NCBI GenBank assembly: GCA_045649105.1
Contig: JAZRPG010000041.1
Location: 10,566-74,565 of the forward strand
Direction: 5' to 3'
From: Eubacteriales bacterium
Lineage (GTDB): Bacteria; Bacillota; Clostridia; Oscillospirales; JAAYXM01
DNA: 64,000 nt
Shown here: piece after piece, positions 33,009-50,081 of the stretch
How positions within the stretch are numbered: position 1 is the stretch's first letter
Layout: each line of letters opens with the position of its first letter
Notes under the pieces: generated by a model
Seen by the model: only the letters and a program-made list of their open reading frames with translations
The model's database searches: none
What the model was told of the DNA's origin: nothing
Program-made: the position numbers and the translations under genes

Positions 33009-35645
33009 CTACTGAATATTCTTTTTAACAAATTCACGCGCTACATCGAGAGCTGCCTGAAGCTTTGTAACATCGTTTCCGCCGGCCATTGCGAAATCCG
33101 GCTTTCCGCCACCGTTTCCGCCTGCAGCCTGTGCTGTTTCGCGAATAAGATTTCCCGCTTTTATTCCGCGCGATACGGCATCCTTTCCGCAGCTTGCGGT
33201 AAATACGATTTTTCCGCCTGCAACTCCGGCAAGTACTGCTACAATGCTTGTATCAAGACTGCGAAGCTCATCGCCGATTGCGCGAAGGTCATCGCCCTTT
33301 ACACCTTCAATCGACTTTGTGATGAATTTAATTCCGGATATATCTTCCGCATCTGCGAGATACTCACGCGCATTATTTTGTGCAAGCTTTGAATTCATAT
33401 CGGAGATTTCCTGACGAAGGGCACGAAGCTCCTCTGCGCAGTGCTCAGCTTTTGATACAATCTCCTTCGGCGCTGCCTTAAGTGCTGCAGAAACATCGCC
33501 GATTGTATTTTCAAGCTCTCCGATTCTTTCAAGGACTGCCATTCCGCATATCGCCTCTATTCTGCGGACACCTGCCGCAACGGACGACTCAGAAACTATC
33601 TTAAAGAGGCCGGCTTTTGCAACATTATCAAGATGCGTTCCTCCGCACAGCTCAATCGAGTAATCGCCCATTTTTACAACGCGGACAATATTTCCGTATT
33701 TCTCGCCAAACAGTGCCATTGCGCCGAGCTTCTTCGCCTCATCAACAGGCATTTCCGAAACGGAAACAGAAAGACCGGACAAAATCGCGGCGTTCACTTT
33801 CTTTTCTACAGCCGAAAGCTCCTCATCAGTCATCTGTGAAAAATGCGCAAAGTCAAACCTTATACTGTCAGGCCCGACAAGTGAGCCTGCCTGCTCAACA
33901 TGTGAGCCGAGCACATCACGAAGCGCCTTCTGCAGAAGATGCGTAGACGAGTGCGCACGCATAATCGCCTCGCGTCTTTCCGTATCGACGCTTGCCGTTA
34001 CAGTTTCGCCGCTTTCTATTATTCCGTCTGCAACAACACCTATATGCAAGAACTTACCGTCTTTTGTCTTCTTGACATCAGATATCTTCAAAGAGCCGTT
34101 CTTTGCCTGTATTTTTCCCGTATCTGCAAGCTGTCCGCCGGACTCTGCGTAGAACGGTGTTCTGTCCAAAACGAGCTGAACGCGGGCACCCTCACTCGCT
34201 GCAGAGGCAAGCTCGTCACCCGTTACGATGGCAAGCACTTTTGCTTCACACGAGAGCGCATCATATCCCGCAAACTCGGTCTTTACGTCCTTGTCAAGGC
34301 CAAGGTCAAGCTTTTCCCAGGCAAAATCTCCGAGCGCCGCCTGTGCTGCACGGGCGCGCTGTCTCTGCTCATTGAGACATGCATCAAACCTGTCATGGTC
34401 AACCGACATGCCATGCTCCTCTAAAATTTCAAGAGTCAGATCTATGGGGAATCCGAATGTATCAGCGAGCTTAAATGCATCGTCTCCTGAGAGGATTTTC
34501 TCTCCATTTGCCTTATGCTTCTTTATCATATCTTCAAGAATTGAGAGGCCGGCATCTATCGTCCTGTTAAATCCGTCCTCCTCCATGCGGATTACCTTCT
34601 TAATATAATCCGCCTTTTCGACAAGCTCAGGATACGCGCCGCCGCTCTCAGTTATAACAGTGCTGCAGACATCATGCAGGAAAGTACCCTTTATTCCGAG
34701 CAGACGACCGTGACGTGCGGCACGGCGCAATAAGCGGCGAAGGACATAGCCTCTGCCCTCGTTTGACGGCATAACTCCGTCGCACACCATCATCGTTGTA
34801 CTTCTGATATGGTCGGTAATTATGCGGAGCGAAATGTCAGTTTTTTCATCTGCGCCATACTTCACATTTGCAATTCGCGAGATATGCTCCATGATATTCT
34901 TTACCGTATCAACCTCAAAGAGCGACTTTACACCCTGCATTATGCATGCAAGGCGCTCAAGACCCATTCCCGTATCTATATTTTTCTGAACAAGCTCTGT
35001 ATAGTTATTATTTCCGTCGTTGTGAAACTGCGTAAAAACAAGGTTCCAGAATTCTACATATCTGTCGCAATCACAGCCTACGGCGCAATCGGGCGAGCCG
35101 CATCCGTGCTCCTCTCCGCGGTCAAAGTATATTTCCGAGCACGGACCGCAAGGACCTGCGCCTATCTCCCAGAAATTATCCTCCTTGCCGAGGCGGACCA
35201 TATGGCTCTCTGCGACGCCTATGTCGCGAGTCCACATCTCGAATGTTTCATCGTCATCCTGATAGACGGATACATAAAGCTTATCTGTGGGGATTTGCAG
35301 AACTTCGGTCACAAACTCCCATGCCCATCTCGTGGCGTCCTTTTTAAAATAATCGCCGAAAGAGAAATTACCGAGCATTTCAAAAAATGTACCGTGTCTT
35401 GAGGTTTTTCCGACGCGCTCTATATCCGGCGTACGGATACATTTCTGGCATGTGGTGACACGTGTGCGCGGCGGCGTAATCTCTCCGGAGAAATACGGCT
35501 TCATCGGCGCCATGCCTGAATTTATAAGTAAAAGCGAGTTGTCCCCCTGCGGCAGAAGCGGAAAGCTCGGCAAACGCAGATGCCCCTTGCTTTCAAAAAA
35601 GTCCAGGAATTTTTCTCTCAACTCGTTTAGTCCCATGTACTGCAT
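33009..35645 (-). CDS. alaS: Alanine--tRNA ligase
   Basis: Track ORF trimmed to MQYMGLNELREKFLDFFESKGH (GGAGGT RBS). Full-length AlaRS with editing and C-Ala domains. Confidence 0.96.
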   Translation of the reverse strand: MQYMGLNELREKFLDFFESKGHLRLPSFPLLPQGDNSLLLINSGMAPMKPYFSGEITPPRTRVTTCQKCIRTPDIERVGKTSRHGTFFEMLGNFSFGDYFKKDATRWAWEFVTEVLQIPTDKLYVSVYQDDDETFEMWTRDIGVAESHMVRLGKEDNFWEIGAGPCGPCSEIYFDRGEEHGCGSPDCAVGCDCDRYVEFWNLVFTQFHNDGNNNYTELVQKNIDTGMGLERLACIMQGVKSLFEVDTVKNIMEHISRIANVKYGADEKTDISLRIITDHIRSTTMMVCDGVMPSNEGRGYVLRRLLRRAARHGRLLGIKGTFLHDVCSTVITESGGAYPELVEKADYIKKVIRMEEDGFNRTIDAGLSILEDMIKKHKANGEKILSGDDAFKLADTFGFPIDLTLEILEEHGMSVDHDRFDACLNEQRQRARAAQAALGDFAWEKLDLGLDKDVKTEFAGYDALSCEAKVLAIVTGDELASAASEGARVQLVLDRTPFYAESGGQLADTGKIQAKNGSLKISDVKKTKDGKFLHIGVVADGIIESGETVTASVDTERREAIMRAHSSTHLLQKALRDVLGSHVEQAGSLVGPDSIRFDFAHFSQMTDEELSAVEKKVNAAILSGLSVSVSEMPVDEAKKLGAMALFGEKYGNIVRVVKMGDYSIELCGGTHLDNVAKAGLFKIVSESSVAAGVRRIEAICGMAVLERIGELENTIGDVSAALKAAPKEIVSKAEHCAEELRALRQEISDMNSKLAQNNAREYLADAEDISGIKFITKSIEGVKGDDLRAIGDELRSLDTSIVAVLAGVAGGKIVFTASCGKDAVSRGIKAGNLIRETAQAAGGNGGGKPDFAMAGGNDVTKLQAALDVAREFVKKNIQ

Positions 35646-35694
35646 ATTAACCTCCGAAATGCAAAACAAAAAATTTTAAAAACACATGCTTTTA

Positions 35695-39621: not shown

Positions 39622-40650
39622 ATGAATTTGATATTTGAAAGAAAACTTCCCATACCGAAAGAGATTAAAGAGATGTGTCCGTTATCACCGGACTTAAGTA
39701 GAATAATCAAAGAAAGAGAAAAGGAAATTGCGGATATCTTCACAGGAAAGAGCAATAAGCTCATCCTTATAATCGGCCCCTGCTCCGCCGATAACGAAGA
39801 CAGCGTCATAGATTATATTACAAGGCTTAGGCGCGTGCAGGAAAAGGTTTCTGATAAAATCTTTATCATTCCGCGAATTTACACGAACAAGCCGCGGACA
39901 ACAGGCGACGGCTACAAGGGCATGCTTCATCAGCCCAATCCTACCGAAAAGCCTGATATGCTAAAGGGCATTATGATGATTCGTGATTTGCATATAAGAG
40001 CAATCAAGGAAACAGGCTTTTCATGTGCAGACGAGATGCTCTACCCTGAAAATTACAGGTATCTGGATGACATTTTAGCCTATGTTGCAATCGGTGCAAG
40101 AAGCGTCGAAAATCAGCAGCACAGATTAACGGCAAGCGGAATCTCCATCCCTGTCGGAATGAAGAATCCCACAAGCGGAGATTTATCCGTTATGATGAAC
40201 GCAATAAAGGCAGCTCAGCACAAGCATACATTCATATACCGCGGCTGGGAAGTACATTCTCAGGGAAACCCATTGTCACACGCGATTCTTCGCGGATATG
40301 TAAACAAGCACGGTCAGTCGCTTCCGAACTACCATTACGAAGACCTTGAACTTCTGTGCAAGTTATACAGCGAATCAGGCCTTGAAAACCCGGGCGTAAT
40401 CATCGATACAAACCACTCAAATTCAGGAAAGCAAGCACTTCAGCAAATGCGCATCGCAAAGGATGTTATGCACAGCACAAGACACGACAGCGCCATCAAG
40501 AAGCTTGTAAAAGGCTTTATGATTGAAAGCTATATCGAAGACGGCGCTCAAAAAATCGGCGAGTGTATCTACGGTAAATCCATAACGGACCCGTGCCTTG
40601 GCTGGGAAAAGAGCGAAAAGCTTATTTTCGATTTAGCGGAATTAGTCTAA
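39622..40650 (+). CDS. aroF: 3-deoxy-7-phosphoheptulonate (DAHP) synthase, class I
   Basis: 342 aa. IIGPCSA and KPRT motifs. First gene of the aro operon. Confidence 0.92.
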   Translation: MNLIFERKLPIPKEIKEMCPLSPDLSRIIKEREKEIADIFTGKSNKLILIIGPCSADNEDSVIDYITRLRRVQEKVSDKIFIIPRIYTNKPRTTGDGYKGMLHQPNPTEKPDMLKGIMMIRDLHIRAIKETGFSCADEMLYPENYRYLDDILAYVAIGARSVENQQHRLTASGISIPVGMKNPTSGDLSVMMNAIKAAQHKHTFIYRGWEVHSQGNPLSHAILRGYVNKHGQSLPNYHYEDLELLCKLYSESGLENPGVIIDTNHSNSGKQALQQMRIAKDVMHSTRHDSAIKKLVKGFMIESYIEDGAQKIGECIYGKSITDPCLGWEKSEKLIFDLAELV

Positions 40651-40667
40651 GGAAAGGAAAAAGACAA

Positions 40668-41504
40668 ATGAAAATAGGAATTATAGGACTCGGACTTATC
40701 GGCGGCTCCATGGCAAAAGCAATAAGACTTAATACTGACCATTATGTTTTAGGAATGGATATTGACCGAAAGATAGTAACAAAAGCAAAAATCATAGAGG
40801 CAATAAATGAGGAGCTTACGGAGGAAAACATCGGCGAATGCGATATGCTTATCCTGGCACTATACCCCGATGCAACTGTCAATACGGTCAAAAAATACGC
40901 CCATCTGATTAAAAAGGGCGCATACCTTATTGATTGCGGCGGTGTTAAAGAAAAGGTATGTGACAATATCCCTGAAATCGCAAGAGAAAACGGATTTATA
41001 TTTGTCGGCGGGCATCCCATGGCAGGTATTGAGAAAATTGGCTTTAAGTACTCAAATGCCGAGATTTTTACAGAAGCATCCATGATTTTAACACCCGATG
41101 ATAATGTAAAGGTTGAGGACCTTGTCAATATAAAAATATTCTTCCTCTCAATAGGTTTCGGCAAAATAACGGTGAAAACGGCAAAGGACCATGACAGAAT
41201 AATCGCTTATACCTCTCAGCTTGCCCATGTACTCTCAAACGCTTATGTAAAAAGCGAAACAGCAAAGGAGCATAGGGGCTTATCGGCAGGAAGCTTTAAG
41301 GACCTGACAAGAGTTGCGTATCTTAACGAAACAATGTGGACCGAGCTGTTTTTTGAAAACAAAAACAATCTTATTTCTGAGCTTGACACGCTTATAAATA
41401 ACCTTGGCGAATACAAGTCCGCACTTGAAAAAAATGACGAAGACAAACTGAAGGAACTTCTCAGAATCGGAAGAGAAACAAAAGAGGCGCTTGACAATGA
41501 ATAG
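40668..41504 (+). CDS. tyrA: Prephenate dehydrogenase
   Basis: Trimmed to MKIGIIGLGLIGGSMAKAI (Rossmann fold). GGHPMAG motif. Confidence 0.9.
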   Translation: MKIGIIGLGLIGGSMAKAIRLNTDHYVLGMDIDRKIVTKAKIIEAINEELTEENIGECDMLILALYPDATVNTVKKYAHLIKKGAYLIDCGGVKEKVCDNIPEIARENGFIFVGGHPMAGIEKIGFKYSNAEIFTEASMILTPDDNVKVEDLVNIKIFFLSIGFGKITVKTAKDHDRIIAYTSQLAHVLSNAYVKSETAKEHRGLSAGSFKDLTRVAYLNETMWTELFFENKNNLISELDTLINNLGEYKSALEKNDEDKLKELLRIGRETKEALDNE

Positions 41505-42549
41505 AAAAGTTACGGTCAGCGGTGTCACAAAGCCTTACGACATCATTATAGGAAATAATATTCTAAACATACTCCCCGATAAAATAAAAGAGCTTACAGG
41601 GGCAAAAAACGTCGTTATCATAACTGATGATAATGTTGACAGGCTGTACTCCGAGAAGCTTTTAAGCATAGTAAATGATGCAGGGTTTAATACTCTTAAA
41701 TTTGTATTCCCTCACGGAGAGAATCACAAGACAATGGAAACAGTCCATGACATATTGGAGTTTATGGCAGAAAACAACATAACCCGCTCCGACCTGATTA
41801 TTGCCCTCGGCGGAGGTATTGTCGGAGATGTGACGGGATATGCGGCGGCATCATATCTCCGCGGAACAGCTTTCATTCAGGTCCCCACCACCTTCCTGGC
41901 TGCCATAGACTCATCTGTCGGAGGCAAAACGGGAGTGAACTTAAAATCAGGAAAAAATCTTGCAGGCGCGTTTTATCAGCCACGACTCGTCGTTTGTGAC
42001 ACTGACACCTTTAAAACACTGCCGAAAGAAAACTTTAAGGAAGGCGTTTGTGAAGCAATAAAGTACGGTGTAATTTGTGATAAGGAACTGTTTGATTTGC
42101 TTTCAAAAAACGAACGCACAGATATAGAGAGCGTTATAGAAAGATGCGTCTCCATCAAGGCCGAAATTGTAGCAGCGGATGAATTTGACACAGGCAAAAG
42201 ACAGCTTCTGAATTTCGGGCACACAATCGGCCACGCAATCGAAAAGGCAACAGACTTTAAAATTTCTCACGGAATTGCAGTCGGAATCGGAATGGCGCTT
42301 ATTTCCAAAATCAGCGATTGCCTGGGGTGGTCGAAGGAAGACACGCACTCCCCGATTATGAAATGTCTTAAAAACAACGACATTCCGACAGACACCGATG
42401 TTAAAACCGATGCGCTTCTGTCTGCCATGCTAAAGGATAAAAAGAGAAACGGAGACGCAATAAACCTTGTTGTCCCCGAAAAAATCGGGGCTTGTGTGCT
42501 TAAAAGCATACATATTGCCGAGCTTGAGGAAGTGTTAAAATGCAGGTGA
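41497..42549 (+). CDS. aroB: 3-dehydroquinate synthase
   Basis: Start taken at ATG 41497 (AAAGAGG RBS 9 nt upstream), which overlaps the tyrA stop. GGGVVGD-type and HGIAV motifs. Confidence 0.92.
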   Translation: MNRKVTVSGVTKPYDIIIGNNILNILPDKIKELTGAKNVVIITDDNVDRLYSEKLLSIVNDAGFNTLKFVFPHGENHKTMETVHDILEFMAENNITRSDLIIALGGGIVGDVTGYAAASYLRGTAFIQVPTTFLAAIDSSVGGKTGVNLKSGKNLAGAFYQPRLVVCDTDTFKTLPKENFKEGVCEAIKYGVICDKELFDLLSKNERTDIESVIERCVSIKAEIVAADEFDTGKRQLLNFGHTIGHAIEKATDFKISHGIAVGIGMALISKISDCLGWSKEDTHSPIMKCLKNNDIPTDTDVKTDALLSAMLKDKKRNGDAINLVVPEKIGACVLKSIHIAELEEVLKCR

Positions 42550-43796
42550 AAATAAAACCCGTAAATCCATTCGGCGAAGTTTCCGCCATCAGCTCAAAAT
42601 CAGATGCGCACAGAGCAATCATCTGCTCTGCACTCTCTGATGACAAAACCTCAATACACATATCGCATATATCAAAAGACATTGAGGCGACTTTAAACTG
42701 CATAAGAAAAATGGGTGCGGATTTTTCAAAAAACGGCAATTTATATGAAATAACACCTGTTCAAACCCCCGTTTTAAACCCCGTTCTGGATTGTAACGAG
42801 AGCGGCTCGACACTGAGATTCTTATTCCCTGTTTTGTCGGCACTCGGTTGCGGCGCTACATTTATCGGCTCAGGCAGACTTCCCGAGCGGCCGATGGAGC
42901 TTATCGTTGATTTATTAAAGGAGCACGGAAACAGCTTTTCGTCAACCGGGCTTCCCATAACCGTATCGGGAAAAACTACCGCAGGGACATTTGACATCGC
43001 AGGAAATGTAAGCTCACAGTTTATATCCGGGCTTTTATTTGCACTTCCCCTGCTTCGAAAAAAAAGCGTTATAAGACTCACATCAAAGCTTCAGTCATCA
43101 GCTTATGTCAACATGACGGTTGACACTTTAAAAAACTTCGGAGTAAATATCACGCAAACCGAGAACGGGTTTATTGTAAATGCAACCGATAATTACACAT
43201 CGCCAAAAAAATATATTGTTGAAGGCGATTGGTCGAATGCGGCATTTTTTATGGTTATGGGCGCCCTCGGCGGTAATGTCACAATAAAAAACCTTAATTT
43301 AAACTCTCATCAGAGCGACAAAATGATTCTGGACGCGTTATCTCTTGCAGGAGTGGATTTCAGTCTTTCCGATAACCTGATTACAGTTTCAAAAAGCGAA
43401 ATAAAGCCTTTTGATTTTGATGTGTCAGAGTGTCCCGACCTGTTCCCCGTTTTGTCTGTTTTAGCCTGCAGAGCAAAAGGCAAATCAACTCTTTATAACG
43501 CAGAGCGGTTAAGGATAAAGGAAAGCGACAGAATCAAAACAACCAAAGAGCTTATATTAAATCTCGGCGGAAATGCGGAGGAAACCGACGACAGCTTAAT
43601 CATATACGGAAACGGGAAATTAAGCGGCGGGCAGGCAGAAAGCCATAACGACCACAGAATTGCAATGTCGGCATTTACCGCAAGTGTGATTTGCGAAAAC
43701 GATATTATTCTCAAAAATGCGGAAGCGGTAGACAAATCCTATCCGACATTTATGGAGGATTTCAGTAAAATCGGAGGTGCTTTTGATGTCATCTGA
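42540..43796 (+). CDS. aroA: 3-phosphoshikimate 1-carboxyvinyltransferase (EPSP synthase)
   Basis: 418 aa. SKSDAHRAII, LRIKESDR and NDHRIAM motifs. Confidence 0.95.
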   Translation: MQVKIKPVNPFGEVSAISSKSDAHRAIICSALSDDKTSIHISHISKDIEATLNCIRKMGADFSKNGNLYEITPVQTPVLNPVLDCNESGSTLRFLFPVLSALGCGATFIGSGRLPERPMELIVDLLKEHGNSFSSTGLPITVSGKTTAGTFDIAGNVSSQFISGLLFALPLLRKKSVIRLTSKLQSSAYVNMTVDTLKNFGVNITQTENGFIVNATDNYTSPKKYIVEGDWSNAAFFMVMGALGGNVTIKNLNLNSHQSDKMILDALSLAGVDFSLSDNLITVSKSEIKPFDFDVSECPDLFPVLSVLACRAKGKSTLYNAERLRIKESDRIKTTKELILNLGGNAEETDDSLIIYGNGKLSGGQAESHNDHRIAMSAFTASVICENDIILKNAEAVDKSYPTFMEDFSKIGGAFDVI

Positions 43797-44853
43797 AACA
43801 GGAAAAAAAATAAAAGTCAGTATTTTCGGCGAATCCCACGGCAGTGCTGTCGGCGCTGTAGCAGATAACCTGCCTGCAGGAGAATATATTGATTTAAACG
43901 AGCTGCAGCGCTTCCTAAAGCGCCGTCAGGGCGGAAACAACAAATACTCCACGCCGAGAAAAGAAGCCGATATCCCCGAAATTGTATCCGGAATCAAGGA
44001 TAATATAACAACAGGCGCTCCCCTGTGCCTTATTATCAGAAACGAAAATACCCGCTCAAAGGATTATGAAACGGACATTCCGAGACCCGGACATGCAGAT
44101 TTTACCGCTCATACAAAATACAACGGCTTCTGCGATTTAAGAGGCGGCGGGCATTTTTCAGGCAGACTGACCGCACCGATTTGTGCAGTCGGCGGAATAT
44201 TGATGCAAATATTAAAAAGGCGCGGCATTGATATAGTTGCGCATTTGTCATCAGTCGGCAATATTTTTGACGATAGAATAAACAATCTTGCGCTTGATGA
44301 AAATCAGCTGAGCAAGATAAAGAGTTCCTGCTTCCCCGTCCTTTCAGATGCTGCAGGTGAAAAAATGCAGGATTTGATTATGAGCGTTAAGGACGAAGGA
44401 AATTCCGTCGGCGGATGCGTTGAATGCGGAATATACGGCCTTGATGCAGGCATCGGAAACCCGATGTTTGACGGGCTGGAAAATGCAATAGCTTCTGCTG
44501 TTTTCGGCATTGGCGGCGTAAAGGGCATCGAATTCGGACTCGGGTTTGAGGCTGCTAAAATTAAAGGCTCGGAAAACAATGATGAGTTTTATATGGACGG
44601 AGGTTCGGTAAAGACAAAAACCAACAACCACGGCGGAATCCTTGGAGGCATAACAACGGGAATGCCCGTCGTATTTAACGTTGCATTCAAGCCCACTCCT
44701 TCAATTTCGCTCAACCAGCAAAGTGTGAGCTTTTCAAAAAAAGAAAATGTTAATTTATCAGTAAAAGGCAGACATGACCCCTGCATTGCAGTTCGCGCAG
44801 TGCCTTGCATCGAGGCCATATCTGCAATAGCTGTATCGGACTTTTTACTGTAG
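43786..44853 (+). CDS. aroC: Chorismate synthase
   Basis: Start at ATG 43786 (GGAGGTG RBS). FGESHG and RPGHAD motifs. Confidence 0.95.
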   Translation: MSSETGKKIKVSIFGESHGSAVGAVADNLPAGEYIDLNELQRFLKRRQGGNNKYSTPRKEADIPEIVSGIKDNITTGAPLCLIIRNENTRSKDYETDIPRPGHADFTAHTKYNGFCDLRGGGHFSGRLTAPICAVGGILMQILKRRGIDIVAHLSSVGNIFDDRINNLALDENQLSKIKSSCFPVLSDAAGEKMQDLIMSVKDEGNSVGGCVECGIYGLDAGIGNPMFDGLENAIASAVFGIGGVKGIEFGLGFEAAKIKGSENNDEFYMDGGSVKTKTNNHGGILGGITTGMPVVFNVAFKPTPSISLNQQSVSFSKKENVNLSVKGRHDPCIAVRAVPCIEAISAIAVSDFLL

Positions 44854-44864
44854 AGGTGGTAAAA

Positions 44865-46007
44865 ATGGGTTTAGATGAATTACGAAATGAAATAGACGCA
44901 ATAGATGATGAAATTCTAAATCTTTTCTTAAAAAGAATGGAGAAGGCATCACAAGTCGCAGATTACAAAAAAGAAAACAAGCTTTCCACCTTGCAAAAAG
45001 GCAGAGAAAGAGAAATCCTCAAACGAGTGAGCGAAAAGTCAGGAAGCGAAATGGCGGAATACTCCCGGATGCTTTTTTCGCACCTGATGGACTTAAGCAA
45101 AAATTATCAGAACAAAAGAAACGCCGACTCCTACGGAGAGCTTTCCGAAAAAATAAAAAATGCACTCAGCAATACTCCGAAAATTTTTCCGCACTCAGGT
45201 ACCGTTGCGTGTCAGGGCATTGAGGGTGCATATTCACAGATTGCGTGCGACAGGCTTTTTAAAGACTCCGACATTCAGTACGTCAAAACATTTGAGGATG
45301 TTTTTAAAAAAGTGGAGGACGGAACCTGCAGTTATGGAATTTTGCCTATTGAAAATTCAATCCACGGGACTGTAATTGCCGTTTATGACCTTATGAAAAA
45401 CTATAATTTTCATATCATTAAAAGCATCAAACTAAAGATTAACCATGCTCTCATGGCAAACAAAGGTACAAAGCTTTCGGATATTCGGGAAATTGTTTCC
45501 CACGAGCAGGCAATCGGACAATGCTCGGAATTCTTAAAGGAGTATCCCGACATAAAGATAACCGTTTGTGAAAATACCGCAGTTGCCGCAAAGCTTGTTG
45601 CAGACTCGAAAAGACACGATATCGCTGCCATTTCTTCTCCCGATTGTGCAGAGAATTACGGACTTTTTGTTCTTGATGATAAAATCGCAAACTCCGACAG
45701 TAACTTCACAAGGTTTATCTGTATCACAAAGGAGCTCTTGATTTATCCCGGTGCCGACAGGATAAGCATTATAATGAACCTGCCGCACACTCCGGGCTCA
45801 CTGAACAGCATTCTTTCAAAATTCGCAACGGCAGGACTTAACCTGACAAAGCTTGAATCAAGACCGCTTGCAGGAAGGGATTTTGAGTTTTCCTTCTATT
45901 TTGATTTGGAAGCATCAATATATGCAGAGGAAACACTCAGCATCTTAGATGAGCTTGCATCAGGAAACAATAACCTGATTTTCCTCGGAAGCTATCTGCA
46001 GTCTTAA
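44865..46007 (+). CDS. pheA: Bifunctional chorismate mutase / prephenate dehydratase (P-protein) with ACT domain
   Basis: Trimmed to MGLDELRNEIDAIDDEILNLFLKRM (CM_2 domain; GAGGTGG RBS). PDT region GILPIENSIHG and a C-terminal ACT domain. Confidence 0.92.
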   Translation: MGLDELRNEIDAIDDEILNLFLKRMEKASQVADYKKENKLSTLQKGREREILKRVSEKSGSEMAEYSRMLFSHLMDLSKNYQNKRNADSYGELSEKIKNALSNTPKIFPHSGTVACQGIEGAYSQIACDRLFKDSDIQYVKTFEDVFKKVEDGTCSYGILPIENSIHGTVIAVYDLMKNYNFHIIKSIKLKINHALMANKGTKLSDIREIVSHEQAIGQCSEFLKEYPDIKITVCENTAVAAKLVADSKRHDIAAISSPDCAENYGLFVLDDKIANSDSNFTRFICITKELLIYPGADRISIIMNLPHTPGSLNSILSKFATAGLNLTKLESRPLAGRDFEFSFYFDLEASIYAEETLSILDELASGNNNLIFLGSYLQS

Positions 46008-46123
46008 GACAAAAAACAAAACGCACATAAGCGCAATAATCCCCTATCACTCTCCCCTGCGATAAGGGAAAATTTCAGTCTGATATTTAGCTGTTGCAGG
46101 GCGGCGGAACGGAATTTATAAGT

Positions 46124-47362
46124 ATGAAATACGGATGCATAGGTGAGCATTTAACACACAGCTTTTCAAAGGAAATACATAACAGTCTTGCGGATTACGA
46201 TTATGTACTAAAGGAAATTCCGAGGGAAAATCTCAGTGAATTTCTGACTGGCCGCGATTTTAAGGCTGTTAATGTAACAATTCCTTACAAAGAAGCTGTC
46301 ATTCCATATCTTTATTATACAGACGATGCCGCAAAGGAGATTGGCGCAGTAAATACCGTTGTAAACAAAGACGGTAAGCTTTACGGATATAATACTGACT
46401 TTTACGGAATGAGAATGCTGTTATCCCACGCAGGAATCACCCTTAAGGACAAAAAAGTTGCAATCTTAGGCACAGGCGGCACTTCAAAAACTGCCGCAGC
46501 TGTTGCAAAATCACTTTCAGCAAAAGAAATTCTCATCGTTTCAAGAGCCAAAAAGGACGGCACGATAACATACGAGGAATTATATGAAAATAACAAGGAT
46601 TCGGATATTATTATAAACACAACGCCGCTCGGCATGTTTCCGGACATTTTTACAAAGCCGGTTGATATACAAAAATTCACAAACCTCTCAGGCGTGATTG
46701 ATGCAGTGTACAATCCTCTTAAAACCGGACTCATCTGTGATGCAAAAAAACTCGGAATAAAAGCAGAGGGTGGCCTTTATATGCTTGTGGCTCAGGCAGT
46801 TCTGGCATCAGAGATATTTACAGAAAAAAAATACGAAAAAGGAACGCTTGATGCAATCTTTAAGAAACTGAAAAAGGAAAAAGAAAACATTGTCCTAATC
46901 GGGATGCCTTCATCAGGCAAAAGCACGACAGGAAAAGAAATTGCAAAAAGGCTCGCCCGCAAATTCTACGATACTGACGAGCTCATAGAAAACGAAACAG
47001 GCAGAAAAATATCTGAAATTATCGCTGCAGCGGGCGAAGAATCATTCAGAAGCGCAGAAAAAGACACCGTATGCGAGGTATCAAAGAAAACAGGGGTTGT
47101 TATCGCTACAGGCGGCGGTGTTGTACTGAAAGAAGAAAATGTAAGAGCACTGTCACAAAACGGCAGAATATATTTTTTGGACAGACCTGTTGAATTACTT
47201 CTGCCGACAAAGGACAGGCCCCTCACAAGCACAAAGGAAGCTCTGCTTCAAAAATTCAGCGAAAGATACAGTATTTATGAACAGTCGGCAGATGTCAAAA
47301 TTGATGCATCAGGCGATGTGGATACGGTTTCAAATGCGGTAACAAAAGATTTCAAAGAATAA
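46124..47362 (+). CDS. aroE/aroK: Shikimate dehydrogenase / shikimate kinase fusion
   Basis: Trimmed to MKYGCIGEHLTHSFS. N-terminal AroE (NVTIPYK, NTD), C-terminal AroK with Walker A GMPSSGKST. Confidence 0.9.
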   Translation: MKYGCIGEHLTHSFSKEIHNSLADYDYVLKEIPRENLSEFLTGRDFKAVNVTIPYKEAVIPYLYYTDDAAKEIGAVNTVVNKDGKLYGYNTDFYGMRMLLSHAGITLKDKKVAILGTGGTSKTAAAVAKSLSAKEILIVSRAKKDGTITYEELYENNKDSDIIINTTPLGMFPDIFTKPVDIQKFTNLSGVIDAVYNPLKTGLICDAKKLGIKAEGGLYMLVAQAVLASEIFTEKKYEKGTLDAIFKKLKKEKENIVLIGMPSSGKSTTGKEIAKRLARKFYDTDELIENETGRKISEIIAAAGEESFRSAEKDTVCEVSKKTGVVIATGGGVVLKEENVRALSQNGRIYFLDRPVELLLPTKDRPLTSTKEALLQKFSERYSIYEQSADVKIDASGDVDTVSNAVTKDFKE

Positions 47363-47396: not shown

Positions 47397-47426
47397 TTGA
47401 CAAAACAAAAGACAAAGGAATATAAT
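47397..47426 (+). promoter_or_regulatory. Sigma-A promoter of the T-box unit
   Basis: TTGACA, 18 nt, TATAAT, about 30 nt upstream of Stem I. Confidence 0.6.
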
Positions 47427-47454
47427 ATAATACAAATTTGAATATCACAAAAAA

Positions 47455-47720
47455 CGACTATGATGAGGACGGTCGGATTGCAAAACCTTGAGAGAGTTGC
47501 CGGTTGGTGCGAGGCAATGGCAGAGCTTTCCAATGACTTATCACCTCTGAGTCGGAGGACCGAAAAGCTATGGCTTAGTAGACTCCTTCCGTAATGCTGC
47601 GTAAAAGCAAAGGGCTTGTCAGAGCTCGGTAAGTGACGGAAATTTATGAATTTTCGTAATTTGAGTGGTACCGCGGGTTATTATAACTCGTCTCAAAGTT
47701 ATCTTTGAGGCGAGTTTTTT
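47455..47720 (+). promoter_or_regulatory. T-box riboswitch leader (specifier most likely AUC, Ile; Leu registers possible)
   Basis: Stem I carries a K-turn (CGAC-UAU-GAU-GAGG / CCUC-UGA-GUCG), AG bulge AGAGAG and distal loop GGUUGGUGCGA. Also present: an AGTA box, an F-box-like CCGTAA, Stem III, the T-box sequence AATTTGAGTGGTACCGCGG (47658-76), and a 13-bp terminator plus T6. Confidence 0.9.
47686..47720 (+). terminator. T-box terminator
   Basis: ACTCGTCTCAAAG-ttat-CTTTGAGGCGAGT followed by TTTTTT. Confidence 0.9.
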
Positions 47721-47780
47721 GTTTTATTCAAATTCGTAACCAAATGCTGAATTTGTCAAAACCGGAAAGGAGACAAAACA

Positions 47781-50081
47781 ATGGATTACAGTTTGAAAGA
47801 GGTAGCAGGCAGAATCAAGGGTCTGCGCGAAGCAAAAGGATACACACAGGAAGAGCTTGCAAGGCTTTGCGGTGTATCGGCAGAAGACTATAAAGTCCTG
47901 GAAAACGGTGAAAAGGATTTCAGCTTCACATTTATTTACAAGTGCGCAAAAGCTTGCGGTGTTGAGGTTGTAGATTTGCTCGAAGGAACAAGCACAACTC
48001 TTACTTCTTTCGCCATCACAAGAAAAGGCGAAGGTCTTAAAATCGTTAAAAAGCACGGTGTGGAATACAACAACCTTGCCCCTAAGTTCAGAGAAAAGCT
48101 TGCCGAACCTTTCCTCGTTAAATTTCCGTACATTGAGGAGGAGCAGAACACTCCGATTCAGTTAAATTCACATAACGGTCAGGAATTTGATGTTATTGTC
48201 AAAGGTTCGCTCAAGGTTCAGGTCGGAAATCATGTGGATATACTCCGCGAGGGTGATTCCATTTTCTATAACAGCCTTATTCCCCACGGTATGGTCGCAG
48301 CAAGCGAGGGCGGCTGCGAATTTCATGCGGTAGTACTCAATCCGCAGGACGGCAAAGTCAGCGAAGAATATCCCGAAGCTCCGATGATTGCTGCAAAGGC
48401 AGCTGCCAAAAAGAAAAAGACAGAAACAGTTGCAGATAAGTTCATCGAATCATCTTATGATGAAAACGGTGTGTTCAGCGGTATCAAATTCAAGAATGCA
48501 GATTCATTTAACTTTGCTTATGACTGCGTTGATGCCATTGCCGAAAAGAATCCCGAAAAACTCGCCATGATGTGGGTGGCAAACGACAAGACGGACAGAC
48601 GCTTTACATTTTCCGATATGAAAAAATATTCTGCAAAAACCGCAAACTACTTTGAATCACTCGGCATCAAAAAAGGCGACACGGTAATGCTCGTATTAAA
48701 AAGACATTATCAGTTCTGGTTCTGTATGCTTGCACTTCACAAAATCGGTGCTATCGCAATCCCTGCAACAAATCAGCTTGTAGAGCACGACTTTGATTAC
48801 AGATACAAGGCAGCAAAAGTAAAAGCAGTTGTATGTACCGCAGATGGTGATGTATCACTTGAGGCAGAAAAAGCAGCTGCAAATTATCCCGGCATGGTAA
48901 AAGTATTGGTTGGCGGAAATAAAGAAGGCTGGCACGATTTCAATGTTGAAATGGAACGCTTCAGTACACACTTTGACCGCACGGAAAACACACCTTGCGG
49001 AAACGACCCGATGCTTATGCTCTTTACATCGGGCACTACAGGCTATCCGAGAATCGCAACACATTCATACAAATACGCACTCGGTCATTATCCTACAGCG
49101 AAGCATTGGCATAATGTAAATCCTGACGGACTCCACTTCACAATCTCCGATACAGGCTGGGGTAAAGCACTTTGGGGTAAGCTTTACGGACAGTGGCTAT
49201 GCGAAGCGGCACAGTTTACCTATGATTTTGACAGATTCCATTCGGAAGATATTTTGCCGATGTTTGCGAAATACAACATCACAACCTTCTGTGCACCGCC
49301 TACAATGTACCGTTTCTTTATTAAAGAGGATTTGTCAAAGTATGACCTTTCTTCTATCGAGTATGCGACAACCGCAGGCGAAGCATTAAACCCCGAAGTA
49401 TTCAATCAGTTTAAGAAAGCAACGGGTCTTACAATTATGGAAGGCTTCGGCCAGACAGAAACAACCCTTTCCATCGCAAACTTTGTCGGCTCAACACCGA
49501 AAATCGGTTCCATGGGCAGACCTTCTCCGCTTTATGATGTAGTCGTTCTCGACCCTGACGGCAACGAATGCAAAACGGGCGATACAGGCGAAATCTGTAT
49601 CAGAGTGAAAGATGATATCCCTTGCGGGCTCTTTATCGGCTATTATCTTGACGAAGAAAAGACAAATGAGGTATGGCATGACGGATACTATCATACAGGC
49701 GACCAGGCAACAATGGACGAAGACGGATACCTTTGGTATGTCGGCCGTATAGATGATGTTATCAAATCGTCAGGCTACCGCATCGGGCCTTTTGAAATCG
49801 AGAGCGTTATCATGGAGCTTCCCTATGTTCTTGAATGCGCAATCACACCCGTTCCCGATGAAGTTCGCGGTCAGATTGTAAAGGCTACCATCGTGCTCGT
49901 CAAAGGACATAACGGCACGGATGAACTCAAGAAAGAGATTCAGGAATATGTCAAAACACACACCGCGCCGTACAAATATCCTCGAATCGTTGAATTTGTC
50001 GATGAGCTTCCAAAAACAATCAGCGGTAAGGTAAGGCGTGTTGAAATCCGTAAAAATGATATGAATAAAATGCAAAAATAA
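47781..50081 (+). CDS. Fusion protein: XRE-type HTH + cupin domain + AMP-forming (medium-chain-type) acyl-CoA synthetase
   Basis: 766 aa with an AAAGGAG RBS. N-terminal HTH (GLREAKGYTQEELARLCGVS), a cupin (GQEFDVIVKG...HGM) and a K/A-rich linker. Adenylation motifs TSGTTGYPR, GRIDDVIKSSGYRIGPFEIE and PKTISGKVRR. Confidence 0.85.
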   Translation: MDYSLKEVAGRIKGLREAKGYTQEELARLCGVSAEDYKVLENGEKDFSFTFIYKCAKACGVEVVDLLEGTSTTLTSFAITRKGEGLKIVKKHGVEYNNLAPKFREKLAEPFLVKFPYIEEEQNTPIQLNSHNGQEFDVIVKGSLKVQVGNHVDILREGDSIFYNSLIPHGMVAASEGGCEFHAVVLNPQDGKVSEEYPEAPMIAAKAAAKKKKTETVADKFIESSYDENGVFSGIKFKNADSFNFAYDCVDAIAEKNPEKLAMMWVANDKTDRRFTFSDMKKYSAKTANYFESLGIKKGDTVMLVLKRHYQFWFCMLALHKIGAIAIPATNQLVEHDFDYRYKAAKVKAVVCTADGDVSLEAEKAAANYPGMVKVLVGGNKEGWHDFNVEMERFSTHFDRTENTPCGNDPMLMLFTSGTTGYPRIATHSYKYALGHYPTAKHWHNVNPDGLHFTISDTGWGKALWGKLYGQWLCEAAQFTYDFDRFHSEDILPMFAKYNITTFCAPPTMYRFFIKEDLSKYDLSSIEYATTAGEALNPEVFNQFKKATGLTIMEGFGQTETTLSIANFVGSTPKIGSMGRPSPLYDVVVLDPDGNECKTGDTGEICIRVKDDIPCGLFIGYYLDEEKTNEVWHDGYYHTGDQATMDEDGYLWYVGRIDDVIKSSGYRIGPFEIESVIMELPYVLECAITPVPDEVRGQIVKATIVLVKGHNGTDELKKEIQEYVKTHTAPYKYPRIVEFVDELPKTISGKVRRVEIRKNDMNKMQK

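What the first reader, a model, noticed from the sequence alone, without database searches (positions are those of the whole stretch)
47397..47780. A canonical T-box (Ile or Leu specifier) controls an acyl-CoA synthetase instead of an aaRS, biosynthesis or transporter gene
Seen in sequence: a promoter (TTGACA/TATAAT) followed by a complete T-box leader. Stem I (47455-47554) has a K-turn, AG bulge AGAGAG and distal loop GGUUGGUGCGA. An AGTA box (47577-80), an F-box-like CCGUAA (47589-94) and Stem III (47636-57) follow. The T-box sequence is AAUUUGAGUGGUACCGCGG, followed by a 13-bp terminator plus U6. The 3' strand of the specifier loop is GACUUAUCA (47535-43). Under the positional rule (codon is the 3 nt before the last unpaired purine next to the basal GAGG/CCUC helix) the specifier is AUC (Ile) followed by A. 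Other registers give CUU or UUA (Leu). The UGGU bulge implies discriminator A73, which fits Ile or Leu but not Trp. The only gene downstream is an AMP-forming acyl-CoA synthetase. Established knowledge: T-boxes read uncharged tRNA. Rumen and gut anaerobes synthesise Ile/Leu/Val by reductive carboxylation of 2-methylbutyrate, isovalerate and isobutyrate (work of Allison and colleagues), and Ile can also derive from propionate via 2-oxobutyrate synthase. These routes need the acid activated to its CoA thioester. Inference: this may be a tRNA-sensed, starvation-induced short or branched-chain acid activation step feeding amino-acid salvage. I do not know this regulon link to be described.
Basis: partly seen in the sequence, partly recalled or inferred. 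Interest (0 to 1): 0.72.

Follow-up and report, generated by a model that had tools for sequence, protein, structure and literature searches.

The report
Isoleucine T-box controls branched-acid CoA ligase
A tRNA-sensing RNA switch that reads isoleucine shortage turns on an enzyme that most likely activates the gut fatty acid 2-methylbutyrate, apparently so the bacterium can rebuild isoleucine from it. This gives a genetic handle on a rumen pathway known only biochemically since the 1960s.

Summary
Window 47451-47698 (+) is a complete transcriptional T-box leader (RF00230, 91.4 bits against a cut-off of 93, E 1e-20). It follows a perfect TTGACA-18-TATAAT promoter and ends in a 14-bp terminator. 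The specifier is AUC (Ile): that triplet is invariant in 75 orthologous leaders while the flanking bases vary, which rules out the Leu registers.

The regulated gene (47781-50081) is more than an acyl-CoA synthetase. It fuses an HTH-cupin module to a ligase 55% identical to Methanosarcina MacsMa, whose preferred substrate is 2-methylbutyrate.

- A paralogue carries Val (GUC/GUA) T-boxes.
- A residue four positions before the acyl-pocket Trp (Gly or Ala) tracks the specifier in 128 of 128 genes.
- In 19 of 61 metagenome relatives the ligase gene or genes are followed on the same strand by a P-loop gene and a four-subunit 2-oxoisovalerate:ferredoxin oxidoreductase (VorB above its cut-off).
- One relative adds an aminotransferase.
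- Related loci hold Phe T-boxes before PaaK-like ligases and Leu T-boxes before another ligase.

No VOR lies in this window or in its 80 closest relatives, and nothing has been tested biochemically. I found no published description.

The parts
47397..47426 (+). Sigma-70-type promoter: -35 TTGACA (47397-47402), 18-nt spacer, -10 TATAAT (47421-47426)
   Evidence: 12 of 12 consensus matches; sequence read
47451..47698 (+). T-box leader (Stem I, Stem II, IIA/B region, Stem III, antiterminator)
   Evidence: RF00230, 91.4 bits, E 1.2e-20, model positions 1-219. Covariation in 75 orthologues
47455..47554 (+). Stem I: K-turn base helix (GAGG/CCUC), specifier loop, AG bulge AGAGA 47491-47495, distal loop GGUUGGUGCGA 47502-47512
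   Evidence: Rfam alignment. Helices 1-6 carry compensatory changes, e.g. column pair 76/90 is CG 45, GC 14, UA 13
47540..47543 (+). Specifier codon AUC (Ile) at 47540-47542, followed by A47543
   Evidence: A95, T96 and C97 of alignment A1 are invariant in 75 of 75 leaders while the preceding bases vary. Same slot in the Rfam alignment
47554..47606 (+). Stem II with AGUA box (47577-47580), then F-box-like CCGUAAUGCUGCGUAA
   Evidence: Rfam alignment. Helices 7-8 covary
47636..47657 (+). Stem III
   Evidence: Rfam alignment. Helix 10 has 3 pairs with changes on both sides
47660..47697 (+). Antiterminator holding the T-box sequence. The UGGU bulge (47666-47669) would pair with the tRNA 3' end ACCA (discriminator A73)
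   Evidence: Folds at -10.6 kcal/mol when the terminator's 3' half is left out. The sequence is invariant across orthologues
47685..47722 (+). Intrinsic terminator: 14-bp stem 47685-47716 with loop UUAU, plus U-tract. Its 5' half overlaps the antiterminator's 3' half
   Evidence: dG -20.5 kcal/mol, z -8.78; terminator scan
47767..47772 (+). Ribosome-binding site AAGGAG, 8 nt before the ATG
   Evidence: Read from the sequence
47781..50081 (+). Regulated gene, 766 aa: HTH-cupin module fused to a MACS-type acyl-CoA synthetase
   Evidence: ORF list and translation. Pfam HTH_3, Cupin_2, AMP-binding and AMP-binding_C. AlphaFold model, mean pLDDT 88.8
47781..48365 (+). N-terminal module, aa 1-195: five-helix HTH (aa 5-68) plus cupin barrel (aa 86-186). 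His131, Glu135 and His169 are invariant. A low-confidence Lys/Ala-rich linker follows (aa 190-210)
   Evidence: Pfam. 12-sequence alignment A3. Models. Nearest solved folds are HppE (E 2e-14) and the regulator 1Y9Q (E 3e-13)
48441..50078 (+). Acyl-CoA synthetase domain, aa ~221-766. Gly461 is the residue that tracks the specifier. Trp465 corresponds to MacsMa Trp259. Gly557 stands where Acs has Trp414. The P-loop is TSGTTGYP (aa 416-423) and the presumed catalytic Lys is Lys750
   Evidence: 3ETC: E 8e-203, 55% identity over 529 aa; Foldseek TM 0.96, rmsd 1.7 A. Motif positions. Best NCBIfam model is MbcS, 454 bits, below its 850 cut-off

Best explanation
This is a canonical transcription-attenuating T-box riboswitch that reads tRNA-Ile.

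Proposed mechanism:
1. Transcription starts at a consensus promoter (47397-47426).
2. When tRNA-Ile(GAU) is mostly charged, the 14-bp terminator (47685-47716) forms and transcription stops before the gene.
3. When isoleucine is short, uncharged tRNA-Ile pairs its anticodon with the AUC specifier (47540-47542). Its elbow docks on the Stem I distal platform. Its free 3'-ACCA end pairs with the UGGU bulge (47666-47669).
4. This stabilises the antiterminator and transcription runs into 47781-50081.
5. The product is a medium/short branched-chain acyl-CoA synthetase that most likely converts exogenous 2-methylbutyrate, ATP and CoA into 2-methylbutyryl-CoA.
6. That thioester is then reductively carboxylated by a VOR-type 2-oxoacid:ferredoxin oxidoreductase to 3-methyl-2-oxopentanoate, which is transaminated to isoleucine. 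This is the rumen 'Allison' route.

Shown here: the RNA anatomy, the Ile specifier, the enzyme family, and co-evolution of specifier and enzyme across relatives, including VOR operons. Inferred: tRNA binding and read-through, the substrate, and the fate of the acyl-CoA in this particular organism. The role of the fused HTH-cupin module is not explained. It may be a DNA-binding or ligand- or metal-binding regulatory module.
For: RNA element:
- T-box match with all its elements, plus the competing terminator and antiterminator.
- Covariation in 75 leaders.
- Every one of the 74 of the 80 closest genome loci that have enough upstream DNA carries the T-box motif about 110 nt upstream.
- AUC is invariant.

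Enzyme:
- Best solved relative is MacsMa/3ETC: E 8e-203, 55% identity, TM 0.96. Its preferred substrate is 2-methylbutyrate (PMC10455477).
- The MacsMa residues named in that paper are all conserved: Trp259, the Gly at the Acs-Trp position, Gly459, Tyr460, Lys461, Arg490, Lys519, Tyr525 and Tyr527 (read; motif positions).
- Best NCBIfam model is MbcS, an enzyme selective for 2-methylbutyrate and isobutyrate (PMC10026030).

Specifier tracks enzyme:
- Across 130 T-box-led genes of this family, 103 leaders read AUC and 25 read GUC or GUA (Val). One is ambiguous and one is disrupted (Rfam alignments).
- The residue four positions before the pocket Trp is Gly in 103 of 103 Ile-led genes and Ala in 25 of 25 Val-led genes. 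The window protein and MacsMa both have Gly.

Pathway context:
- 19 of 61 judgeable metagenome loci have the order ACS(s), P-loop NTPase, OFOR delta/alpha/beta/gamma on one strand. The alpha subunit matches VorB at 538.7 bits, above its 399 cut-off.
- L091 has Ile T-box, ACS, ACS-like gene, aminotransferase.
- Parallel units: Phe (UUC) T-box before a PaaK-like ligase plus ACT protein, and Leu (CUC/CUG) T-box before a LeuA-like protein plus TIM-barrel::ligase.
- Reductive carboxylation of 2-methylbutyrate to Ile is the accepted route in a rumen methanogen (PMC2812497).
Against: - No VOR, P-loop or aminotransferase gene lies in the 64-kb window or within 6 kb of the gene in the 80 closest genomes. 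The downstream steps are therefore unverified for this organism.
- The substrate is inferred from 55% identity plus one covarying residue, and ligase specificity can shift with few changes.
- MbcS, the best-scoring named family, feeds lipid synthesis rather than amino-acid synthesis. The match is also far below its equivalog cut-off (454 against 850 bits).
- RF00230 scores 1.6 bits under the gathering threshold.
- In a crude NJ tree three Ile-led genes sit inside the Val cluster.
- The conserved HTH-cupin module has no place in the model.
- No tRNA-Ile gene is in the window to check pairing.
Confidence: 0.7

Rival explanations
1. Lipid-primer supply. The ligase makes 2-methylbutyryl-CoA as the FabH primer for anteiso branched-chain fatty acids, as S. 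aureus MbcS does. The Ile T-box would switch it on when Ile, the normal source of that primer, is scarce, so Ile is spared rather than synthesised.
For: The best NCBIfam match is MbcS. [quoted passage not shown] Branched short acids are incorporated into membrane lipids of a rumen Prevotella (PMC7709123). In the window's own clade the gene stands alone with no VOR.
Against: Relatives place the ligase in operons with VOR and, once, an aminotransferase. These are the enzymes of the keto-acid/amino-acid branch. The parallel Phe T-box before a PaaK-like ligase has no lipid rationale. The two uses are not mutually exclusive.
Confidence: 0.15
2. Propionate route. The enzyme activates propionate. Propionyl-CoA is reductively carboxylated to 2-oxobutyrate, which enters the ordinary ilv pathway to Ile.
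For: MacsMa adenylates C3-C8 acids, including propionate.
Against: MacsMa completes the CoA step best with 2-methylbutyrate. MbcS is poor on propionate. The paralogue with Val T-boxes and a Gly-to-Ala pocket change fits a 2-methylbutyrate/isobutyrate pair, and propionate has no Val counterpart. The linked oxidoreductase is VorB-type.
Confidence: 0.05
3. The regulator is the point. The T-box mainly controls production of an HTH-cupin transcription factor, which then governs an Ile-related regulon. The ligase domain would serve as sensor or co-repressor synthase, as in BirA.
For: There is a Pfam HTH_3 hit. The N-terminal module is conserved down to 37% identity, with invariant His131, Glu135 and His169. 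Its fold matches the regulator 1Y9Q at E 3e-13.
Against: The nearest folds are equally the Fe(II) enzymes HppE and HEPD, whose HTH-like domain does not bind DNA as far as I recall. All ligase catalytic motifs are intact. The only operator-like motif tested was no more frequent than chance. This rival is compatible with the main explanation rather than opposed to it.
Confidence: 0.08
4. Fortuitous or decayed leader. A T-box-like relic with no regulatory role.
For: The RF00230 score is just below the gathering cut-off.
Against: E is 1e-20. All elements are intact. The leader is conserved, with covariation, in 75 species-level genomes and in divergent relatives whose leaders score above the cut-off (L095 101.5 bits, L073 94.4 bits).
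Confidence: 0.02

Closest known systems
T-box riboswitch leaders (Rfam RF00230), e.g. Bacillus subtilis tyrS, ileS and glyQS, and the ilv-leu operon leader
   Same: Same architecture and presumably the same mechanism. Stem I has a K-turn, specifier loop, AG bulge and distal loop. Stem II, the IIA/B region and Stem III follow. The UGGN bulge sits in an antiterminator that competes with an intrinsic terminator. The Ile specifier AUC follows the 'C-rule'.
   Different: The target is neither an aminoacyl-tRNA synthetase, a classical biosynthesis gene nor a transporter, which together make up 92% of targets in the Wels 2008 survey. It is a carboxylic-acid CoA ligase fused to an HTH-cupin module. 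In relatives a ligase-VOR operon is the target.
MacsMa, medium-chain acyl-CoA synthetase of Methanosarcina acetivorans (PDB 3ETC)
   Same: 55% identity over 529 aa and TM 0.96. It shares the alternate acyl pocket (Trp259, with Gly at the Acs-Trp position) and the named CoA-site residues. The specifier-linked residue is Gly in both. Its preferred substrate is 2-methylbutyrate.
   Different: MacsMa is archaeal and has no N-terminal HTH-cupin module. No T-box is known for it, and its physiological role was not established in the text I could read.
MbcS, methylbutyryl-CoA synthetase of Staphylococcus aureus (NCBIfam NF047394)
   Same: It is the best-scoring named family for both the Ile-led and the Val-led paralogues. 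It is selective for 2-methylbutyrate and isobutyrate, the two acids the paralogues appear to divide between them.
   Different: The score is 454 bits against a cut-off of 850, so this is not an equivalog. MbcS feeds FabH for lipid synthesis. It has no HTH-cupin module.
Reductive carboxylation of branched and aromatic acids to amino acids in rumen anaerobes (Allison and colleagues; Methanobrevibacter ruminantium)
   Same: The same chemical logic: acid to acyl-CoA, to 2-oxoacid via a ferredoxin oxidoreductase, to amino acid. The organisms here are ruminant-gut Clostridia.
   Different: The classical work is biochemical and based on labelling. Here the candidate genes and a tRNA-sensing control are identified. 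As late as 2020 a rumen Prevotella paper called the reverse reaction 'not proven yet'.
HTH-plus-cupin two-domain proteins: the XRE-cupin regulator 1Y9Q and the Fe(II) enzymes HppE, HEPD and MPnS
   Same: The N-terminal 195 aa have the same two-domain fold (E 2e-14 to 3e-13). A conserved His-Glu-His set is present. From memory, it resembles the HppE facial triad.
   Different: Here the module is fused to an adenylate-forming enzyme, and the organisms are presumed strict anaerobes. Whether it binds DNA, a metal or a ligand is unknown.

Membership tests
T-box leader (RF00230) | Stem I with K-turn, specifier loop (codon followed by a purine), AG bulge and distal loop | tested here: met
   Rfam alignment. 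The helices covary in 75 leaders. AUC followed by A at 47540-47543.
T-box leader (RF00230) | Conserved T-box sequence with a UGGN bulge in an antiterminator that excludes a downstream intrinsic terminator | tested here: met
   AAUUUGAGUGGUACCGCGG at 47658-47676. Antiterminator -10.6 against terminator -20.5 kcal/mol, sharing bases 47685-47697.
T-box leader (RF00230) | Score at or above Rfam's curated gathering threshold (93 bits) | tested here: inconclusive
   91.4 bits, E 1.2e-20, which is 1.6 bits short. Homologous leaders of the same gene family pass: L095 101.5 and 93.5 bits, L073 94.4 bits. The cut-off is a curation score, not a structural feature.
T-box leader (RF00230) | Binding of cognate uncharged tRNA, and read-through that depends on it | not testable with these tools
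   Needs in vitro transcription or a reporter assay. There is no tRNA-Ile gene in the window.
MACS/MbcS-type short branched-chain acyl-CoA synthetase | AMP-binding fold with intact adenylation and thioesterification motifs | tested here: met
   Pfam AMP-binding and AMP-binding_C. Motifs TSGTTGYP, GFGQTET, YHTGD and PKTISGK are present. TM 0.96 to 3ETC.
MACS/MbcS-type short branched-chain acyl-CoA synthetase | Alternate acyl pocket: Gly in place of Acs Trp414/416, and a Trp at the MacsMa-259 position | tested here: met
   Gly557 and Trp465. The definition comes from PMC10455477.
MbcS equivalog (NF047394) | NCBIfam curated cut-off of 850 bits | tested here: not met
   454.3 bits. It is a related subfamily, not MbcS itself.
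MACS/MbcS-type short branched-chain acyl-CoA synthetase | Preference for 2-methylbutyrate | not testable with these tools
   Inferred from homology and from the Gly/Ala residue that tracks Ile/Val specifiers in 128 of 128 genes.
T-box-controlled ligase-VOR reductive-carboxylation operon (defined here from relatives) | A VOR-type 2-oxoacid:ferredoxin oxidoreductase encoded downstream on the same strand | tested here: not met
   Present in 19 of 61 metagenome relatives. Absent from the window and from L001-L080. In this genome the ligase is monocistronic.
XRE-family HTH-cupin transcription regulators | HTH_3 domain followed by a cupin barrel | tested here: met
   Pfam HTH_3 (40.6 bits) and Cupin_2 (34.2 bits). 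The model shows five helices plus a barrel. Match to 1Y9Q at E 3e-13.
XRE-family HTH-cupin transcription regulators | Sequence-specific DNA binding | not testable with these tools
   The fold is equally close to the enzymes HppE and HEPD. No operator was found.

The most novel reading that the evidence does not exclude
Gut and rumen Clostridia may carry a previously undescribed tRNA-sensed 'acid-salvage' regulon. T-boxes for Ile, Val, Leu and Phe would each switch on a dedicated carboxylic-acid CoA ligase, together with a shared VOR, to rebuild the cognate amino acid from fermentation acids.

The Ile and Val ligases would in addition be bifunctional. Their fused, metal-binding HTH-cupin module would add a second, protein-level control. 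It could act through acyl-adenylate- or amino-acid-dependent DNA binding, as in BirA, or through allosteric feedback. The ACT protein of the Phe unit and the LeuA-type regulatory domain of the Leu unit would be its counterparts.
Probability: 0.2. Interest if true: 0.8.

Novelty: new variant of a known kind. Interest (0 to 1): 0.7.

Why it matters
Rumen and hindgut fibre degraders have been known for sixty years to need or use branched-chain volatile fatty acids, and isotope work showed that these acids are carboxylated to amino acids. The activating enzymes and their regulation in Clostridia have stayed unassigned.

Here the T-box specifier labels each ligase with its amino acid: Ile, Val, Leu or Phe. 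The operon context supplies the carboxylating enzyme (VOR). A single pocket residue (Gly or Ala) predicts the choice between 2-methylbutyrate and isobutyrate. This turns an old physiological question into concrete experiments: enzyme assays, a G461A swap, and labelling. It extends the T-box regulon to acid activation. It also gives gene markers for branched-chain fatty acid use, which matter for ruminant feed supplementation.

Tried and rejected
- Leu (CUU/UUA) and Tyr (UAU) registers of the specifier loop. Rejected because those bases vary among orthologues while AUC does not.
- A link to the aromatic pathway, suggested by the aro operon immediately upstream (39622-47362). Rejected because synteny around the gene is not conserved and the specifier is Ile.
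- A 1163-aa ORF after an Ile T-box in L140 looked like a possible PFOR. It is an Arg/Pro-rich alternative-frame artefact over the ligase gene.
- The conserved 5' leader motif TTGAATATCACAA as an operator for the HTH. Its occurrences in the window are no more than chance.
- My regex-based specifier caller misread about 20 leaders, through helix-length variants and an artefactual one-base helix extension. These were re-read by eye and with Rfam alignments. One leader remains ambiguous (L141, GUCAA) and one is disrupted (L132).
- The window holds no VOR, IOR or ilv genes.
- Unfused homologues: the two loci of P0125 (559 aa) and the one of P0122 (706 aa) show no T-box at E <= 0.001.
- Papers I wanted but that are not held: Vitreschak 2008, Shah 2009 and Meng 2010.
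- The NJ tree does not give clean reciprocal monophyly of Ile- and Val-led genes.
Full report
**1. Observation**

- A perfect sigma-70-type promoter lies at TTGACA 47397-47402, 18-nt spacer, TATAAT 47421-47426.
- A leader follows that Rfam's T-box model aligns end to end at 47451-47698, model positions 1-219. The score is 91.4 bits, with E 1.2e-20 on the region and 1.2e-18 on the whole window.
- That score is 1.6 bits below the curated cut-off of 93, which is why the default scan reported only a tRNA-Pro.
- All landmarks are in place: AGAGA 47491-47495, distal loop 47502-47512, AGUA 47577-47580, CCGUAA 47589-47594, Stem III 47636-47657, and UGGU 47666-47669.
- The 14-bp terminator 47685-47716 (dG -20.5 kcal/mol, z -8.8) shares its 5' half with the 3' half of the antiterminator 47660-47697 (dG -10.6).

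**2. Is it more than chance, and which specifier?**

A scan of one genome per species returned 80 loci encoding the same protein at 88-96% identity. All are MAGs of ruminant or other gut Clostridia, labelled Oscillospiraceae, Acutalibacteraceae, Ruminococcus and similar. All 74 loci with enough upstream DNA carry UGGUACCGCG about 110 nt before the start codon.

In the 75-sequence alignment:
- 98.5% of cells pair.
- 27 of 53 pairs change on both sides. Shuffles give 14.4 +/- 1.5 (0 of 500 reach 27), and slid controls give 7-10.
- A47540, U47541 and C47542 are invariant, while the three preceding bases vary (CUU, CCC, CCU, UCU). The following base is mostly A, sometimes C or G.

The specifier is therefore AUC (Ile). 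The Leu registers and a UAU (Tyr) register are excluded.

**3. The regulated gene**

The ORF 47781-50081 (766 aa) is monocistronic. The next gene is on the other strand.
- Pfam finds HTH_3 (aa 12-65), Cupin_2 (aa 127-184), AMP-binding (aa 252-622) and AMP-binding_C (aa 672-750).
- The ligase domain's best solved relative is 3ETC, MacsMa of Methanosarcina acetivorans: E 8e-203, 55% identity over 529 aa, and Foldseek TM 0.96 with rmsd 1.7 A on an AlphaFold model of mean pLDDT 88.8.
- MacsMa prefers 2-methylbutyrate. It has an alternate acyl pocket built on Trp259, with Gly where acetyl-CoA synthetase has Trp (PMC10455477). The window protein keeps these as Trp465 and Gly557, and it keeps the named CoA-site residues.
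- The best NCBIfam model is MbcS (454 bits, below its 850 cut-off). MbcS is the S. aureus enzyme selective for 2-methylbutyrate and isobutyrate (PMC10026030).

**4. Paralogues and specifier switching**

A search of 50%-identity cluster representatives showed the fusion architecture in several divergent clusters.
- One of them, P0121 (55% identical), lies in tandem behind another fused ligase. The first gene has an Ile (AUC) T-box and P0121 has a Val (GUC) T-box.
- A metagenome scan seeded with P0121 gave 80 diverse loci.
- Across all loci I read 130 T-box-led genes of this family. Of these, 103 leaders read AUC, 15 read GUC and 10 read GUA. One is ambiguous and one is disrupted. Representative leaders were confirmed by Rfam alignments, two of them at or above the gathering score.
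- The nearest neighbour below 85% identity always has the same amino-acid class (124 of 124).
- A crude NJ tree puts the Val-led genes in a derived cluster that also holds three Ile-led genes.
- Two alignment columns separate the classes. The residue four positions before the pocket Trp is Gly in 103 of 103 Ile-led genes and Ala in 25 of 25 Val-led genes. The Thr of GQTE is mostly Ser in Val-led genes.
- The window protein and MacsMa both have Gly and Thr.
- A bulkier residue beside the pocket in the enzyme paired with the smaller acid (isobutyrate, C4, against 2-methylbutyrate, C5) is what a specificity switch would look like. This last point is inference.

**5. Pathway context**

- In L126 the order on one strand is: Ile T-box, ligase, P-loop NTPase (6 nt later), 4Fe-4S delta subunit, alpha, beta, gamma of a 2-oxoacid:ferredoxin oxidoreductase. 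The alpha subunit matches the VorB model at 538.7 bits, above its 399 cut-off.
- By tblastn, 19 of 61 metagenome loci with at least 900 nt downstream show the P-loop gene after the ligase or ligases, and 15 of them reach the VOR beta or gamma subunit.
- L095, L104 and L107 read: T-box(Ile)-ligase, T-box(Val)-ligase, P-loop, VOR.
- L091 reads: T-box(Ile)-ligase, a ligase-like gene with a degenerate P-loop, and a class I/II aminotransferase.
- None of this is linked in the window or in its 80 closest relatives. The rest of the window is housekeeping genes plus a complete aro operon.

**6. Parallel units**

The same genomes hold Phe (UUC) T-boxes (95-117 bits) before a PaaK-like phenylacetate-CoA ligase and an ACT-domain protein. 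They also hold Leu (CUC or CUG) T-boxes (up to 128 bits) before a divergent LeuA-like protein and a TIM-barrel::acyl-CoA ligase fusion. Acid-CoA ligases under a T-box for the cognate amino acid are thus a recurring design in this clade.

**7. Mechanism and rivals**

The best-supported reading is this. Ile shortage leaves tRNA-Ile uncharged. The uncharged tRNA stabilises the antiterminator, the ligase is made, 2-methylbutyrate is activated, and VOR plus a transaminase convert it to Ile. An AMP-forming ligase fixes the direction as acid to thioester. Induction by uncharged tRNA fits synthesis, not degradation.

- The main rival is supply of the anteiso fatty-acid primer, as with MbcS. It is plausible as a second use. 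It does not explain the VOR and aminotransferase operons or the Phe unit.
- A propionate route fits the Val paralogue and the VorB-type enzyme poorly.

**8. The N-terminal module**

- It is conserved down to 37% identity, with invariant His131, Glu135, His169 and Cys179.
- Modelled alone, it has mean pLDDT 88.2.
- Its nearest solved folds are the Fe(II) enzyme HppE (E 2e-14), the XRE-cupin regulator 1Y9Q (E 3e-13), and HEPD/MPnS.
- I cannot tell whether it binds DNA, a metal or a ligand. It remains unexplained.

**9. Novelty**

- T-box regulon surveys list aminoacyl-tRNA synthetases, biosynthesis genes and transporters. In Wels 2008, 8% of targets are unknown or unrelated. No CoA ligase appears in that paper's text or supplements, nor in Sun 2013 or the TBDB paper.
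- Full-text searches pairing T-box with acyl-CoA synthetase, phenylacetate-CoA ligase, branched-chain volatile fatty acids or 2-methylbutyrate found nothing relevant.
- The library lacks most subscription papers, so earlier mention cannot be excluded.
- The RNA mechanism is canonical. The new elements are the class of target and the regulon logic.

Noticed in passing
window 47781-48365: The 'acyl-CoA synthetase' carries an N-terminal HTH_3 + cupin module of about 195 aa, joined by a disordered Lys/Ala-rich linker (aa 190-210). His131, Glu135, His169 and Cys179 are invariant down to 37% identity. The nearest folds are the Fe(II) enzyme HppE and the regulator 1Y9Q. Its function is unknown.
   Followed up: partly
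L012 11517-11765; L026 8515-8764; L037 1507-1756; L073 5965-5717 (-); L075 3724-3476 (-): Phe-specifier (UUC) T-boxes (95-117 bits) precede a PaaK-like phenylacetate-CoA ligase (TIGR02155, 532 bits, below its 646 cut-off) and an ACT-domain-pair protein. This may be a Phe-from-phenylacetate counterpart of the Ile unit.
   Followed up: partly
L012 1412-1656; L032 2776-3028; 13 loci of L001-L080 with the order LeuA-like, TIM::ligase, ACS: Leu-specifier (CUC, sometimes CUG) T-boxes precede a divergent LeuA-like protein (HMGL-like + LeuA_dimer, far below the leuA cut-offs) and an 844-aa fusion of a xylose-isomerase-like TIM barrel to an acyl-CoA ligase. L039 has CCC in the codon slot instead of CUC.
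   Followed up: partly
L089 9648-9903 and 10001-12307; L095 2733-2974; L104 3163-3424; L107 3146-3413: A paralogous HTH-cupin-ligase has Val (GUC/GUA) T-boxes. It often lies in tandem after the Ile-led copy. The paralogues differ at Gly461/Ala and Thr559/Ser (window numbering).
   Followed up: yes
L126 3859-7121, and 18 other metagenome loci: A 224-aa CbiA/ParA-like P-loop NTPase with no NCBIfam match always sits between the ligase and the VOR delta/alpha/beta/gamma genes. It might be an Fe-S maturation or assembly factor.
   Followed up: no
L091 4493-6769 (P0126) and 6797-7978: A second ligase-like gene behind the Ile-led ligase has a degenerate P-loop (LQSYSYGMAKP instead of TSGTTGYPR) and no HTH hit. 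It is followed by a PRK06836-type aminotransferase.
   Followed up: no
window 39622-47362 (+): A compact aromatic amino-acid operon lies directly upstream: DAHP synthase, prephenate dehydrogenase, aroB, aroA, aroC, chorismate mutase/prephenate dehydratase, and a fused shikimate dehydrogenase-shikimate kinase. No riboswitch or T-box was detected before it.
   Followed up: partly
window 33009-35669 (-): An alanyl-tRNA synthetase gene has no T-box detectable at E <= 0.01, although alaS is commonly T-box-controlled in Firmicutes (Wels 2008). This leader is the only T-box in the 64-kb window.
   Followed up: no
L085 2910-2987 and 3996-3919 (-); L086 2504-2581 and 3590-3513 (-): Two convergent Gut-1 RNA-like elements (49.3 and 43.8 bits, cut-off 50) flank a DUF6199 gene just downstream of an unfused homologue of the ligase, which itself has no T-box.
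   Followed up: no
L001-L080 against window 47781-50081: The fusion protein is 88-96% identical across 80 species-level genomes even though the surrounding gene order is almost never conserved. This suggests strong constraint or recent horizontal spread.
   Followed up: no
window 47438-47450: TTGAATATCACAA, between the -10 box and Stem I, is conserved in most orthologous leaders. It could be the transcript's 5' end or an operator. No further copies occur in the window beyond chance.
   Followed up: partly
L012 866-954; L075 13833-13617 (-): A SAM riboswitch (50.6 bits) and a Val (GUC) T-box before an 877-aa valS-like gene lie in related loci.
   Followed up: no
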